This document shows, in pieces, positions 24,434 to 36,630 of a DNA stretch of 64,000 bases. Position numbers and translations under genes: made by a program. The stretch is from the human T2T-CHM13v2.0 reference genome, Homo sapiens. Location of the stretch: the NCBI RefSeq assembly GCF_009914755.1, contig NC_060934.1. One strand, given 5' to 3'. Numbering within the stretch: the stretch's first letter is position 1; each line of letters begins with the position of its first letter. Under the pieces are notes generated by a model. That model had not been told where the DNA came from, made no database searches, and worked only from the letters and a program-made list of their open reading frames with translations.

Positions 24434-24615
24434 CTTCCTTAGAGGTTTCAGCAGGACAACACCACACCCTTCTCCACATCCATAGCCACCTACCCTTTTA
24501 GAGAAAAGTTTACTCATCCCATCTGGAGATATCATTTTGGCTTTGCTCAACATGACATTAAACGAAGGGTCTAACATGCAGCTCACTCCACCACAGAGAG
24601 CTGTTTCACAGTCTC
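24434..24615 (-). pseudogene. PKS pseudogene coding exon 5
   Basis: ggttgcag| ... AAG|gtcagt; 182 nt. GDCETALCGGVSCMLDPSFNVMLSKAKMISPDGMSKLFSKRVGGYGCGEGCGVVLLKPLRK. Confidence 0.93.
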
Positions 24616-25152
24616 CTGCAACCAAGCAACAAATAGCAAACCCAGTGAGAAGAAATAGTGTTTGATTCATATACACAGTGGCTTCCCATCTCATCAGAGA
24701 TTACCTCTCTTGGGAGGTAAACACTAAGGGTCCCCTTCTCATGGAATATAATGTGAATGGGGTCCCCTGAGGTTGTATAGTGTAGAGATACAGGACTGGA
24801 AAAATAACAGAACTGAGAATTTAGAGATTTGGAGTCTGGTCTTAGCTCTGTCACCATTTAGGGGTGACATTTAAGGATGGATATTAATCAAGTCATTTAA
24901 TCTTACTGGACTCATTTCTTGGCACCATAACACAGATGGGTTAAACCAGAGATCTCTAATATTATTAATATCTCTAGCTCAAATATACAAATCTGAGATA
25001 AACTTTGATAGTGAGCTTTCTTCATTTAGTTTAAAGAATCTTGCAAAAGGGCCAGGCGTGGTGGCTCACACCTGTAATCCCAGCAGAGCAGCTGTCAGTG
25101 CAATACTTTCAACAGCCTTGTCTTTTGCCAATTGAAAAGCTTGGGTCAGGGA

Positions 25153-32697: not shown

Positions 32698-35600
32698 TTT
32701 TTTTTTTTTTTTTTTTGGAGACAGAGTCTCACTCTGTCGCCCAGGCTGGAGTGCAGTGGTGTGATCTTGGCTCACTGCAAGTTCCGCCTCCCAGGTTGAC
32801 GCCATTCTCCTCCCTCAGCCTCCCGAGCAGCTGGGACTACAGGCGCCCGCCACCGTGCCCGGCTAATTTTTTGTATTTTTAGTAGAGACGGGGTTTCACC
32901 GTGTTAGCCAGGATGGTCTCGATCGCCTGACCTTGTGATCTGCCCGCCTCAGCCTCCCAAAGTTCTGGGATTACAGGCCTGAACCACCATACCCGGCTGA
33001 GGTTAAATATTTTTTCAAGCTATCTTAATGCTGGTAGGTAGTAGAGTTGGAATTCAAACAAAAAGTCTAGCTTCTGACTCCATGTTCTTAACTACCACTT
33101 GCCATACCATGCTCATATCCAGATTCCTGACCTCATTTTTTTTAAATGTTGCCTGTGTGCTTGTCAAGAATGTGTAGCCTTTCCTTGTTGAGTTCTGGCC
33201 TCGATATATACCTGTTAAAACAAATGTGTTCATTATGTTGTTCAGATTGCCTATATCTACTTTTTTGCATTTTAAAAAATTTCCTTTAGTTATTAATAAT
33301 TGAGAAAAGTGTATTAAAATTCTACGAATTAATTTGTCACTTTCTTTACAAAACTCTATAAATGCTTGCTTTATCCATTTTGAGTCTATTTCATTAGGTA
33401 TATATAAGTTTAGATTGTTACCTACCTAATAAATCAAATTCTTTGCAATCATTGTAGTTACCTACTTTTTCCCTAATGATGCTTTCTTTATTTCTTAAAG
33501 GTTGTCTGATTTTAATATAATTGTTATTTTGATTAATATTTGCTATTTGCCATATATATCTTTCCTTTTTTTTTTTACTTTTAATCTTTCTGTTTTTCTG
33601 GTTCAGGTGTATCTCCTTATGGCATAAGAGGCTGATTTTGTTTTATAATTTAACCTGATAATCTCTTTTTAAAATGGCAACTGTAGCCCATTCAATTTAT
33701 TGTAATTATTAATATATTGAGATGTTTCCAATATTTTACTTTTGTTTTTTATTTGTCCTTTTTTTTTTTTTTTTTTTTTTTGTGAGGCAGAGTCTCTTTC
33801 TGTCAACTAGGCTGGAGTGCAGTGGCGCAATTTTGGCTCACTGCAGCCTCTGCCTCCTGGGTTCAAGTGATTCTGCTGCCTTAGCCTCCTGAGTAGCTGG
33901 GACTGCAGGCACACACCACCACGCCTGGCTAATTTTTGTATTTTTTTTAGTAGAGACGGGGTTTCGCCATGTTGGCCAGGCTGGTCTCGAACTCTTGACC
34001 TCAGGTGATCCACCCACCTCGGCCTCCCAAAGTGCTGGAATTACAGGCGTGAGCCACTGTGCCTGGCTTTGTTTTTTTTTCTTTTTCATTTTCTCACCTG
34101 CTTCTAGGATTCATTGATGCTTCCTTAATATTTTCTCAAACCATTTTTATATTTCTATTGGTATGAATGTTACATACTCTATTCTACTCTTTTAGTAATT
34201 ATCCTAAAATGATACCCTGAATACCTGAGTTAATAAGACCTAAATTGAATATATTAACCCCTTTCCTGAAAAATACTCACCACCCCTCTATACTTACATG
34301 CTATTGTTGCTCAATATTTTACATGTTCCTTTTTTAACGCCACAAATTAGACATCACATTATTATTTTTTACAATGTTCTTTTAGATTTACCTACATAAT
34401 TACCAATGTTCTGGGTCATCATTCCTTTGCACATTCTAGACATTACTTCTGCATTTTTTTTTTTTTTTTGAGATGGAGTCTCGCTCTGTTGCCCAGGCTG
34501 GAATGCAGTGGTGCAATCTCAGCTCACTGCAAGCTCTGCCTCCCGGGTTCACACCATTCTCCTGCCTCAGCCTCCAGAGTAGCTGGGACTACAGGCACCC
34601 GCCACCACGCCTGGCTAATTTTTTGTATTTTTAGTAGAGATTGGGTTTCACCGTGTTAGCCAGGATGGTCTTGATCTTCTGACCTCCTGATCTGCCTGCC
34701 TTGGCCTCCCAAAGTGCTGCGATTACAGGCGGGAGCCACCGTGCCCGGCCTACCTCTGCATGTTTATCCTCCTTCCTGAAATAGATTCTTTAGACATTAC
34801 TTTAGTCCCTTGGTAATAAATGCTGCAGTTTTTGTTTATCTACAAATTGTCTTTATTTTATCTGCATTCATAGAAGGTACGCTCTCTGGAATACTTCTAG
34901 GTTGAGAATTCTTCGCTCTCAGCGTTCTGAAGATATCGTTCCACTTCCTTCTGGCTTCTATTGTTGCATTTAGAAAAGTGCTATCAGTTCATCGTTATTG
35001 TTCTTTGTGGGTGATCAGTCTTTTCTCTCTCACTATTATTAGAATCTCTTTTTCTTTGATATCTGCAGTTTTATTACAATATGTCTAGACTTGAATTTCC
35101 TATTTATCCTGTTTTATAGGGCCTCTTGTATCACTAGATTCTAATTGAAATAAACCAGGGGGTTGTGTTACAGGAGACTTGTCTTGAGTTATGCCTCCTC
35201 AGCTAGGGCATGGTTTTAACTAAAAGTGTATGTTAAATTAGGGGAATTGTTTGACTCTTTAACCAGAATGACTTCGCTAATACAATGACAGAAATTTCAT
35301 GAGTTTCTGAGAATTGAATTTATGTCTACACACAGTTTCTTTTTTTATTACTTTTTAGAGGTAGAGTCTCTCTCTGTCACTCAGACTGAAGTATGGTGGT
35401 GTGATCATAGCTCACTGAAGCCTTGAACTCCTGGGCTCAAGCAATCCTCCCACCTCAGCCTCCTGAGTAGCTGGGACTGCAGGCATAAGCCACCTCGCCC
35501 AGCTAATTTTTGCTTTTTTTTTTTTTTTTTTTTTTTTTTTGGTATAGTTGAGGTCTCTCTATGTTGCCCAGGCTGGCCTCAAGCAGTCCTCTCGTCTCAG

Positions 35601-36630
35601 CCTTGCAAAGTGCTGGGATAACAGGCATGAGCCACTGTGCCCTGCCCTCTGCACACAGTTTCTAAAGAGGAGCTCTACAGGCCTGGCATCGTGGCTCACA
35701 CCTGTAATCCCAACACTTCGGGAGGCCAAGGCAGGTGGATCACCTGAGGTCAGGAGTTCGAGACCAGCCTGGCCAACATGGTGAAACCCCATCTCTGAAA
35801 AATATACAAAAAATAGTCAGGCATGTGGCAGACACCTCATAATTGCAGCTACTTAGGAGGCTGAGGCAGGAGAATTGCTTGAACCCAGGAGGCAGAGGTT
35901 GCAGTGAGCCCAGATTGCCCCACTGCACTCCAGTGTGGGTGACAGAGTGAGTATCCACCTTAAAATAAATAAATAAATAATAAATAAATAAATAAATAAT
36001 AAATAAATGACAACTTACCACAAGGGTTGTTTTAGTAACGTAGGCATTATGTAGGATAAGATTATTGTTGCTTTATCACTCTTACCTCCTGGAAAATTGC
36101 ATCCTATTCCCCCAATTGCAACCTCATCTTTTTTTTCCATGTTTGATTAATCTGATTGGCAGCTAAAAAAAATAAATAAAAGAACAAAAGATCAGGAAAA
36201 TAAAATCTCTTTCTTCGATTAAGAAACCAATGGGGGCTTGGTTAAATTACTCAACTTATACATCACATTCTTGTTAGAACTAACAATTCCTCATCTTGCA
36301 TTCTTTGCACCTCTTGTATCAGCATATCTTGTAATTTTTTTCTTTTTTTTTGAGACAGAGTCTCATTTTGTCACCCAGGCTAGAGTGCAGTGGGGTGATC
36401 TCGGCTCACTGCAACCTCCACCTCCCAGGTTCAAGCGATTCTCCTGCCTCAGCCTCCGGAGTAGCTGGGATTACAGGTGCCCACCACCACGCCTGGCTAA
36501 TTTTTGTATTTTTAGTAGAGATGGGGTTTTGCCATATTGGCCAGGCTGGTCTCGAACTCCTGACCTCAGGTGATCTGCCCGCCTCAGCCTCCCAAAGTGC
36601 TGGGATTACAGGCCTGAGCCACCGCATCCA
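32698..36630. mobile_element. Alus in and near PKS intron 1: 32698-32997 -, 33759-34067 -, 34454-34750 -, 35340-35645 -, 35680-36006 +, 36335-36630 -; old L1M remnant ~33150-35140 (-)
   Basis: Alu consensus; T-rich decayed L1-like sequence. Confidence 0.85.
36086..36162 (-). pseudogene. PKS pseudogene first coding exon (ATG at 36140-36138)
   Basis: ttttttag|CTGCC...AAACATGG...GGAG|gtaaga. Encodes MEKKDEVAIGGIGCNFPG(G); 55 coding nt, ends phase 1. Confidence 0.9.

What the first reader, a model, noticed from the sequence alone, without database searches (positions are those of the whole stretch)
24434..36162. Fossil animal polyketide synthase gene in a primate genome: five spliceable ketosynthase exons
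Seen: five minus-strand exons spread over 12 kb, all with AG/GT sites and matching phases, beginning at an ATG in good Kozak context. They encode [38 protein letters not shown] (catalytic Cys) and GYG.GEG. Established: these are type I KS motifs; they differ from FASN (MEEVVIAGMSGKLP..., MMANRLSFFFDFRGPS) and fit the animal iterative PKS group, which includes fish otolith pks1/OlPKS, parrot MuPKS and sea-urchin pigment PKS. Inference: this is the unprocessed relic of a polyketide pathway lost in this lineage. Whether this exact locus is already annotated cannot be checked here.
Basis: partly seen in the sequence, partly recalled or inferred. Interest (0 to 1): 0.9.

Follow-up and report, generated by a model that had tools for sequence, protein, structure and literature searches.

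The report
Human relic of an animal polyketide synthase
Just downstream of ANKRD26 on human chromosome 10 lie the first five exons of a polyketide synthase gene that fish, birds and marsupials still use, broken here by a one-base deletion and missing its giant last exon.

Summary
Five minus-strand exons (36140-36086, 32039-31886, 29750-29590, 26978-26776, 24615-24434), all with AG/GT sites, encode the N-terminal half of a type I ketosynthase. They hit Pfam PF00109 in colinear order. Their closest relatives are vertebrate animal-type PKSs (79-80% to shrew and manatee gene models, 60-68% to reptile, bird and fish PKS), not FASN (35-50%) or OXSM (25%).

Corrections: exon 4 carries a 1-nt deletion (broken codon 26931-26930), so the spliced frame stops at codon 150. 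Only about 252 of roughly 2,000 codons survive. No trace of the rest (KS-C, AT, DH, KR, ACP) was found in 154 kb scanned towards ABI1.

It is an unprocessed unitary pseudogene. Three of its exons are reused in ANKRD26 read-through transcripts.

Two additions. The exons look too well kept (no stop in 251 codons) for a loss at the origin of placentals. Separately, decayed intronless PKS fragments covering residues ~386-1808, probably an old retrocopy, lie in chr2, 13, 14, 16 and 22; the chr16 copy is split by ~13 Mb flanked by satellite repeats.

The papers I read list no PKS in human or placentals.

The parts
36086..36162 (-). Exon 1 of the PKS relic. Coding starts at the ATG at 36140-36138 (55 coding nt, MEKKDEVAIGGIGCNFPG, phase 1 at the donor). 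AG acceptor at 36164-36163, GT donor at 36085-36084.
   Evidence: The profile HMM built here gives E 0.002. tblastn to manatee residues 4-24 is 81% identical. The hub table has the same span as an ANKRD26 alternative-transcript exon.
31886..32039 (-). Exon 2 (154 nt; ...[52 protein letters not shown]). Not annotated as an exon. A masked repeat (32058-32374, Alu-like in sequence) ends 18 nt upstream of its acceptor.
   Evidence: PF00109, E 2.5e-4; E 8e-19. tblastn 65-69% to manatee, shrew and quail.
29590..29750 (-). Exon 3 (161 nt; [54 protein letters not shown], ends in phase 1).
   Evidence: E 4.5e-16; E 2.7e-23. The hub table has the same span as an ANKRD26 alternative-transcript exon.
26776..26978 (-). 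Exon 4 (203 nt; should be 204). It holds the active-site cysteine motif DSACSSS. A 1-nt deletion (broken codon 26931-26930) shifts the frame.
   Evidence: E 4.3e-14; E 3.4e-26 for the second part, 0.04 for the first part in the other frame. tblastn HSPs switch frame at 26932-26941. The hub table lists 26776-26978 among ANKRD26 alternative exons.
24434..24615 (-). Exon 5 (182 nt; DCETALCGGVSCMLDPSFNVMLSKAKMISPDGMSKLFSKRVGGYGCGEGCGVVLLKPLRK). Not annotated as an exon. It is the last PKS-like sequence at the locus.
   Evidence: E 1.2e-14; E 6.6e-29. Downstream of it, nothing in the 24.4 kb of window plus 90 kb further left scores better than E 0.19 by tblastn or E 4.7 by the profile search.

Best explanation
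This is an unprocessed unitary pseudogene. It is the in-place remnant of the vertebrate iterative type I polyketide synthase (domain order KS-AT-DH-KR-ACP in intact animal genes), the family that includes the medaka and zebrafish otolith PKS and the bird PKS group.

Shown: only the first five small exons survive. They encode residues 1-252, the N-terminal half of the ketosynthase including the active-site cysteine. A 1-nt deletion in exon 4 breaks the frame. The part that intact genes carry after exon 5 is physically gone from the locus.

Inferred: that missing part was one giant sixth exon. The relic makes no enzyme. Its old splice sites still work, and E1, E3 and E4 are spliced into read-through transcripts annotated under ANKRD26. 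The exons stayed under purifying selection well into placental and probably primate history, so the loss was late and lineage-specific, not a single event at the origin of placentals.
For: Identity and family:
- PF00109 hits are colinear on 4 of 5 pieces.
- Of 63 candidates, 55 proteins scored E<=1e-5; the named ones at the top are manatee 82%, shrew 81%, echidna 84% and sturgeon 80%, followed by fish and bird PKSs.
- In the human genome the manatee protein matches 4 of the 5 relic exons at 62-79%, a FASN exon at 44% and a chr3 locus (presumably OXSM) at 26%.
- The shrew orthologue scores 232 bits on CurL KS but 158 bits on human FASN in the PDB.
- In the tree of 21 rows the placental clade has support 100/99 and the vertebrate PKS clade 100/99.

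Lesions:
- Frameshift in E4.
- No sequence for residues above ~255 in 154 kb: tblastn best E 0.005 (a weak hit at 58 kb that the profile search rejected) and otherwise >=0.19; in the profile HMM, everything but the exons scores E>=4.7 against a control best of 3.7.
- Human differs at 9 of 96 columns invariant in 12 non-mammal vertebrate PKSs, against 4 for shrew and 5 for manatee.

Gene structure: medaka olpks has six exons for 2051 aa (PMC4604110, passage). The shrew model ends right after E5, and a turtle partial model is exactly 253 aa.

Synteny:
- One goby model fuses the KS to YME1L1.
- The Fig. 4D legend of PMC9894158 lists YME1L1, MASTL, ACBD5, ABI1, PDSS1, PTCHD3 and MKX among genes flanking animal PKS homologues.
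- Lizard Pks copies lie between Rab18 and Acbd5 (PMC10990284).

Late loss:
- There are 0 stops in 251 codons, whereas the dispersed PKS fragments in the same genome carry 42 stops in 2124 aligned codons. That density predicts 5.0 stops, P(0)=0.007.
- Human-specific differences are 23 of 204, against 18 of 199 for shrew and 19 of 200 for manatee.
- In a simulation, the joint chance of no stop and at most one frameshift falls below 5% at d>=0.05 substitutions per site (the indel rate is assumed).
Against: - The shrew and manatee proteins are automatic gene models that may have been built around lesions, and I could not see their DNA or check their synteny.
- No other mammalian genome was available, so neither the date of the frameshift nor dN/dS could be measured. 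The neutrality bound rests on assumed indel and substitution rates.
- On stops alone, P(no stop) is still 0.048 at d=0.16, so an old loss is not excluded by that measure by itself.
- Intron positions in intact vertebrate PKS genes were not compared directly.
- FASN is not in the tree.
- The human gene order used for synteny is partly recalled, not taken from a call.
Confidence: 0.9

Rival explanations
1. Same relic, different timing. The gene died once, in the stem of placental mammals as the literature suggests, and the five exons have simply decayed slowly by chance.
For: PMC10764717 (passage read) reports PKSs only in marsupials among mammals. Exon 6 is missing in human and seems missing or decayed in the shrew and manatee models. 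The KS-N half is the most conserved part of any PKS. On stops alone, P(no stop) is still 0.048 at d=0.16.
Against: Shrew, manatee and human keep 79-81% pairwise amino-acid identity, and the shrew and manatee reading frames are unbroken. Human has 0 stops in 251 codons where the stop density of the dispersed fragments predicts 5.0. The joint chance of no stop and at most one frameshift is 0.0001 or less at d>=0.12 (assumed indel rate).
Confidence: 0.2
2. The five exons were kept because they have a use of their own, either as a truncated KS-N protein in placentals or as functional exons of ANKRD26 read-through transcripts. They would then not be a mere fossil.
For: Three placental lineages keep E1-E5 while exon 6 is gone or decayed. 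E1, E3 and E4 are annotated exons of ANKRD26 transcripts (hub table). A predicted 418-aa protein from a close primate (P0001, 96-97% identical) is built from these exons.
Against: In human the frame is broken, and six otherwise invariant residues have changed only in human (F44L, T62A, E112K, P228L, A233V, R238C). From general knowledge of the fold, half a thiolase-fold domain without the C-terminal catalytic histidines is not expected to fold or catalyse. E2 and E5 are not in any annotated transcript.
Confidence: 0.07
3. The exons derive from FASN or OXSM, or are foreign DNA (horizontal transfer or contamination).
For: All of these carry thiolase-fold KS domains with a similar cysteine motif. 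Bacterial PKS KS domains are 43-52% identical to the manatee orthologue.
Against: FASN exons are 35-50% identical and OXSM 25%, against 79-80% to the placental models and 60-68% to other vertebrate PKSs. The sequence has four spliceosomal introns carrying human repeats, lies in a complete human assembly, and gives a tree that follows the species tree.
Confidence: 0.01

Closest known systems
Fish otolith PKS (medaka OlPKS, zebrafish pks1) and other teleost PKSs
   Same: Same family. Human E1-E5 is 58-64% identical to the fish PKS N-termini tested, with the same KS motifs. Medaka olpks is a six-exon gene of 2051 aa (PMC4604110), which fits five small exons plus one giant exon.
   Different: Human has only residues 1-252, a frameshift, and no KS-C, AT, DH, KR or ACP. 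I did not test which fish paralogue is the orthologue; the named fish hits are automatic models, not the published OlPKS or pks1 records.
Bird and reptile PKS (the group of budgerigar MuPKS; here quail, Callipepla, cuckoo-roller, turtle and lizard models)
   Same: 63-68% identity over E1-E5. The sauropsid clade sits beside the placental clade within the vertebrate PKS clade.
   Different: Sauropsid genes are full length and in some lineages multi-copy (five copies in wall lizards, PMC10990284). MuPKS itself was not among the sequences I had, and Cooke et al. 2017 was not held, so the link to MuPKS is by family name only.
Predicted placental proteins: manatee LOC111822330 (455 aa) and shrew 'putative inactive ... 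Pks15' (266 aa)
   Same: 79-80% identical to human over 251 columns, with the same five-exon span. The shrew model also ends by reading into the intron after E5.
   Different: Their frames are open. The manatee model continues through a KS C-terminal domain (PF02801) that human lacks.
Human FASN (chr17)
   Same: A type I KS with the cysteine motif DTACSSS, and also a multi-exon animal gene.
   Different: Only 35-50% identical per exon to the shrew orthologue and 44% to manatee, with different motifs (MMANRLSFFFDFRG against [14 protein letters not shown]). FASN scores lower than bacterial PKS KS domains in the PDB search.
Other human unitary pseudogenes of lost pathways (for example GULOP and the vitellogenin relics; recalled, not tested)
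   Same: An unprocessed remnant at the ancestral position, with a few exons left and disabling lesions.
   Different: This one belongs to a natural-product enzyme family reported as absent from placentals, and part of it is reused as exons of a neighbouring gene's transcripts.

Membership tests
Vertebrate animal-type iterative type I PKS | N-terminal ketosynthase domain (PF00109) | tested here: met
   4 of 5 exon pieces hit PF00109 above the cut-off, colinear over profile positions 14-250 of 252.
Vertebrate animal-type iterative type I PKS | Active-site cysteine in the D(T/S)ACSSS motif | tested here: met
   DSACSSS in E4. Fish PKSs also have DSACSSS.
Vertebrate animal-type iterative type I PKS | KS C-terminal domain (PF02801) with the catalytic histidines | tested here: not met
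   Manatee residues 269-455 match nothing in the human genome at E<=0.01. Nothing was found in 154 kb of chr10.
Vertebrate animal-type iterative type I PKS | AT, DH, KR and ACP domains downstream in the same gene | tested here: not met
   Absent from the locus. Decayed AT-to-C-terminus fragments exist only on other chromosomes.
Vertebrate animal-type iterative type I PKS | Closest relatives are animal PKSs, not FASN or OXSM | tested here: met
   FASN itself is not in the tree.
Vertebrate animal-type iterative type I PKS | Intron positions shared with intact vertebrate PKS genes | tested here: inconclusive
   Indirect only: medaka has six exons (PMC4604110), a turtle partial model is 253 aa, and the shrew model ends after E5. 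No vertebrate PKS gene DNA was available.
Vertebrate animal-type iterative type I PKS | Conserved neighbourhood (ABI1, YME1L1, MASTL, ACBD5, PTCHD3, RAB18) | tested here: inconclusive
   A goby KS-YME1L1 fused model; the Fig. 4D legend of PMC9894158; lizard Rab18-Pks/Ptchd3-Acbd5 (PMC10990284); ABI1 and ANKRD26 from the hub table; a Patched-family gene at chr10:27.43 Mb. The rest of the human gene order is recalled.
Vertebrate animal-type iterative type I PKS | Open reading frame (a working gene) | tested here: not met
   A 1-nt deletion in E4 gives a stop at codon 150.
Unitary (unprocessed) pseudogene | Introns kept, disabling lesions, and no intact paralogue in the genome | tested here: met
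   Four introns with AG/GT, a frameshift and loss of exon 6. Whole-genome searches found only FASN, OXSM and stop-riddled fragments.
Animal FASN | Highest similarity to FASN KS and FASN-type motifs | tested here: not met
   35-50% identity to FASN exons, against 79-80% to the placental PKS models.

The most novel reading that the evidence does not exclude
Placental mammals did not lose their polyketide synthase at their origin. The gene, or at least its ketosynthase N-terminal exons, stayed under purifying selection for tens of millions of years in several placental lineages, including the one leading to primates, and was then disabled independently. Some living placentals may therefore still make a PKS product, or a conserved truncated KS-N protein exists. 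An early mammalian germ line also expressed the gene, leaving a retrocopy that was later scattered through pericentromeric duplications.
Probability: 0.35. Interest if true: 0.7.

Novelty: new member of a known kind. Interest (0 to 1): 0.55.

Why it matters
Animal polyketide synthases make otolith-nucleating and pigment molecules in fish and birds. Published surveys list none in human or any placental mammal (PMC4604110; PMC10764717) and explicitly call for a closer search. A syntenic five-exon relic in the complete human genome gives the loss a physical address. That makes its timing testable by aligning this one locus across primates and other mammals. The relic also hints that the loss was late and repeated rather than a single event tied to the origin of placentals. 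It further explains the origin of three exons used by ANKRD26 read-through transcripts. No medical or functional consequence is shown.

Tried and rejected
- **Weak AT-like hit at window 58016-57810 (minus strand).** tblastn gave E 0.005-0.09 with four bird queries and weaker with fish; identity was 25-28% and the GHSxG motif was lost. The profile HMM scored it E=12, no better than the reversed-sequence control at 3.7, so I rejected it as chance. Two Pfam calls on this piece failed because the frame holds a stop.
- **Are the dispersed fragments the missing exon 6 moved from chr10?** Flank-to-chr10 blastn gave only interspersed repeats, and the 3' ends look like an mRNA end. Not supported, but not excluded.
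- **PTCHD3-type relics beside the dispersed fragments.** A PF02460 search of the genome found 10 matches, none near them (sensitivity is limited).
- **FASN in the tree.** Left out. The FASN comparison rests.
- **Hezroni et al. 2017 (lncRNA fossils of coding genes).** The search terms ANKRD26, FAM238, YME1L1, ABI1, polyketide, fatty acid synthase, LOC420486 and pks gave no occurrence in the main text or in the 4 supplementary files held.
- **Papers not held.** Cooke 2017, Lee 2019, and Torres and Schmidt 2019. They may say something about mammals that I could not see.
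Full report
**The observation**

Four of the five pieces hit Pfam PF00109, the ketoacyl-synthase N-terminal domain, at E 2.5e-4, 4.5e-16, 4.3e-14 and 1.2e-14. The profile positions are colinear: 14-59, 68-131, 142-192 and 188-250 of 252. The 18-codon first exon is too short to score.

Exact boundaries:

| Exon | Window coordinates | Length |
|---|---|---|
| E1 | 36140 (ATG)-36086 | 55 coding nt |
| E2 | 32039-31886 | 154 nt |
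| E3 | 29750-29590 | 161 nt |
| E4 | 26978-26776 | 203 nt |
| E5 | 24615-24434 | 182 nt |

Each exon has AG/GT sites. The ATG has A at -3 and G at +4. A profile HMM that I built from 18 vertebrate PKSs scores the exons at E 8e-19 to 7e-29 (E1 0.002). The best hit in a reversed-sequence control is E 3.7. The feature is real.

**The correction**

E3 ends in phase 1, and the acceptor that fits it is the annotated one at 26978. From there E4 reads [16 protein letters not shown] and then runs into a stop. The part with [16 protein letters not shown] and DSACSSS lies in another frame. Shrew and manatee proteins read through this point. So human has a 1-nt deletion, with the broken codon at 26931-26930. 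The exons sum to 755 nt, and the message as spliced stops at codon 150. The internal AG at 26943-26942 hides the lesion but is out of phase with E3.

**What it is**

- A database search with the open part of E4 returned 55 proteins at E<=1e-5 among 63 candidates. The top named ones are manatee (82%), shrew (81%), echidna (84%) and sturgeon (80%), followed by many fish and some bird PKSs.
- With the manatee protein as query, the 120 rows listed run from vertebrate PKSs (59-79%) to mollusc and bacterial PKSs (43-52%). None is named FASN, and shrew is the only other placental entry.
- In the human genome the manatee protein matches E2-E5 (62-79%), one FASN exon (44%) and a chr3 locus (26%, presumably OXSM), six matches in all.
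- Against solved structures the shrew protein scores 232 bits on CurL and 158 bits on human FASN. The top row (364 bits) is the sum of two KS domains in one chain.
- I built a maximum-likelihood tree of 21 rows. Before building it I dropped quail, cuckoo-roller and echidna, because they are partial or mis-modelled in this region. FASN is not in the tree. The placental clade (human, shrew, manatee) has support 100/99 and the vertebrate PKS clade 100/99. Sauropsids and fishes form the neighbouring groups, and molluscs and bacteria lie outside.

**How much is left**

Fish and bird PKSs of 1,700-2,000 aa match the window only over residues 1 to about 253. The manatee model continues into a KS C-terminal domain, but its residues 269-455 match nothing in human. 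I fetched the remaining 90 kb between the window and the region of ABI1. tblastn found nothing better than E 0.19 there, and the profile search found nothing better than E 4.7. Medaka olpks is described as six exons for 2051 aa (PMC4604110, passage). The simplest reading is five small exons plus one giant exon, the latter deleted in human.

**Lesions, in sum**

- The frameshift in E4.
- The loss of about 87% of the coding sequence.
- Changes at 9 of 96 columns that are invariant in 12 non-mammal vertebrate PKSs; six of the nine are seen only in human. Shrew has 4 and manatee 5.
- A masked repeat ending 18 nt upstream of the E2 acceptor, which may explain why E2 is not in annotated transcripts (inference).

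**Present use**

According to the hub table, 36086-36162, 29590-29750 and 26776-26978 are exons of alternative ANKRD26 transcripts. These are E1, E3 and E4 with their original splice sites. E2 and E5 are not annotated. A 418-aa predicted protein from a close relative (P0001, 96-97% identical) is a chimera built from such a transcript.

**Synteny**

- One goby model fuses this KS to YME1L1.
- The Fig. 4D legend of PMC9894158 lists PTCHD3, YME1L1, MASTL, ACBD5, ABI1, PDSS1 and MKX among genes flanking animal PKS homologues.
- In wall lizards the Pks and Ptchd3 copies lie between Rab18 and Acbd5 (PMC10990284).
- Here ABI1 and ANKRD26 flank the relic (hub table), and a Patched-family gene lies at chr10:27.43 Mb.
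- That the other genes are human 10p12.1 neighbours is my recollection.

**Timing (inference)**

Human E1-E5 is 79.7% identical to shrew and 79.3% to manatee, which are 81.3% identical to each other. Lineage-specific differences are 23 of 204 for human, 18 of 199 for shrew and 19 of 200 for manatee. The human terminal branch is 0.18, against 0.10 and 0.098.

There is no stop in 251 codons. The dispersed PKS fragments in the same genome carry 42 stops in 2124 aligned codons, which predicts 5.0 stops here, P(0)=0.007.

I also ran a simulation with an assumed transition bias, an assumed 0.12 indels per substitution, and 85% of indels frameshifting. The joint chance of no stop and at most one frameshift is 0.17 at d=0.03, 0.036 at d=0.05 and 0.0001 at d=0.12. 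On stops alone it is still 0.048 at d=0.16.

These figures fit a period of constraint followed by a fairly recent release. They do not fit neutral drift since the placental ancestor. The caveat is that the shrew and manatee sequences are automatic models and no second mammalian genome was at hand.

**A side finding**

Full-length bird and fish PKSs also match stop-riddled, intronless stretches elsewhere in the genome:

| Place | Quail PKS residues covered |
|---|---|
| chr13:18.45 Mb | 405-1039 and 1607-1806 |
| chr13:20.48 Mb | 386-717 |
| chr16:52.26 Mb | 745-1214 |
| chr16:39.16 Mb | 1249-1806 |
| chr14:13.39 and 13.64 Mb, chr22:16.37 Mb | 1091-1808 |
| chr2:132.13 Mb | 1067-1806 |

E-values go down to 1e-61 and identity is 25-54%.

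- The chr14 and chr22 copies are 99.7-99.8% identical, and chr2 is about 96% identical to them. The chr16 and chr13 lineages differ from them and from each other by 18-28%.
- About 440 nt past the coding end each copy has AATAAA. A run of 10-14 A follows about 28 nt later in the chr14/22 and chr2 copies, and a degraded run follows in chr16. Homology between the chr13 lineage and the others stops just after the AATAAA.
- I read this as a 5'-truncated processed retrocopy of a PKS mRNA that was later spread by duplications (about 0.6 confidence). No target-site duplication was sought.
- Their flanks share only repeats with chr10.
- An open KR stretch is 61-62% identical to bird PKSs.

The two chr16 pieces are halves of one copy. 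Residues 745-1214 are followed directly by a GGAAT-type satellite (L018 1532-4387). The same kind of satellite (L019 6265-10000) is followed directly by residues 1249-1806. Both pieces are on the minus strand, and the chr14 copy runs uninterrupted across the junction. So the roughly 13.1 Mb between chr16:39,166,265 and 52,263,387 sits inside this relic. I saw only the edges of that block; calling it HSat2 is from recall.

**Literature**

- Hojo 2015 (PMC4604110; passages and Table 2 read) lists no PKS for human, cattle, dog, dolphin or mouse, intact genes for opossum and Tasmanian devil, and a platypus pseudogene. It asks for a further intense search.
- Lin 2024 (PMC10764717; passages read) states that no PKS was seen in any placental mammal.
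- Five full-text searches turned up no paper describing a human or placental PKS relic.
- This is not proof of absence. Three relevant papers were not held, and genome-browser pseudogene tracks could not be checked.

**Verdict**

It is a new member of a known kind, of moderate interest. What raises the interest is the unexpectedly good state of the exons and the scattered retrocopy.

Noticed in passing
Own genome, outside the window: L016 (chr13:18449001-18459000), L017 (chr13:20474001-20484000), L018 (chr16:52259001-52269000), L019 (chr16:39160001-39170000), L020 and L023 (chr14:13.38 and 13.63 Mb), L021 (chr22:16365001-16375000), L022 (chr2:132124001-132134000): Stop-riddled, intronless PKS fragments that together cover residues ~386-1808 (AT to the C-terminus) of bird PKS. 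AATAAA plus an A-run follows the 3' UTR. This is probably an old 5'-truncated retrocopy spread by duplications. Copies range from 99.8% to 72% identical.
   Followed up: partly
L018 1532-4387 and L019 6265-10000 (chr16:52.26 Mb and 39.17 Mb): A GGAAT-type satellite abuts both halves of one PKS fragment copy (residues 745-1214 | 1249-1806, both on the minus strand). The ~13.1 Mb between them therefore lies inside that relic. Only the edges of the block were read.
   Followed up: partly
L020 1135-3401 (chr14:13.38 Mb), and the matching part of L022: A 16/33/50-bp minisatellite (unit GAGCAGATGGAGCTCA) lies directly upstream of the PKS fragment in the chr14, chr22 and chr2 copies.
   Followed up: no
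window 32058-32374: A masked repeat (Alu-like in sequence) ends 18 nt upstream of the E2 acceptor. E2 is one of the two relic exons absent from annotated transcripts, which suggests an effect on splicing (hub table).
   Followed up: no
window 1276-1604, 4038-4530, 6241-6737, 6950-7147: The C-terminal part of the predicted primate protein P0001 matches several places in the first 7 kb of the window. These are internal repeats in the FAM238C / ANKRD26 terminal-exon region.
   Followed up: no
window 26510-26899: Database ORFs P0006 (130 aa, 99% identical to this stretch) and P0164/P0165 (99% identical to the chr16 KR fragment) come from metagenome collections. They are most likely human DNA carried in those samples.
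   Followed up: no
window 57810-58016: A weak similarity to the AT active-site region of PKS (tblastn E 0.005-0.09 with bird queries). The profile search rejected it as chance-level (E 12 against a control of 3.7).
   Followed up: yes
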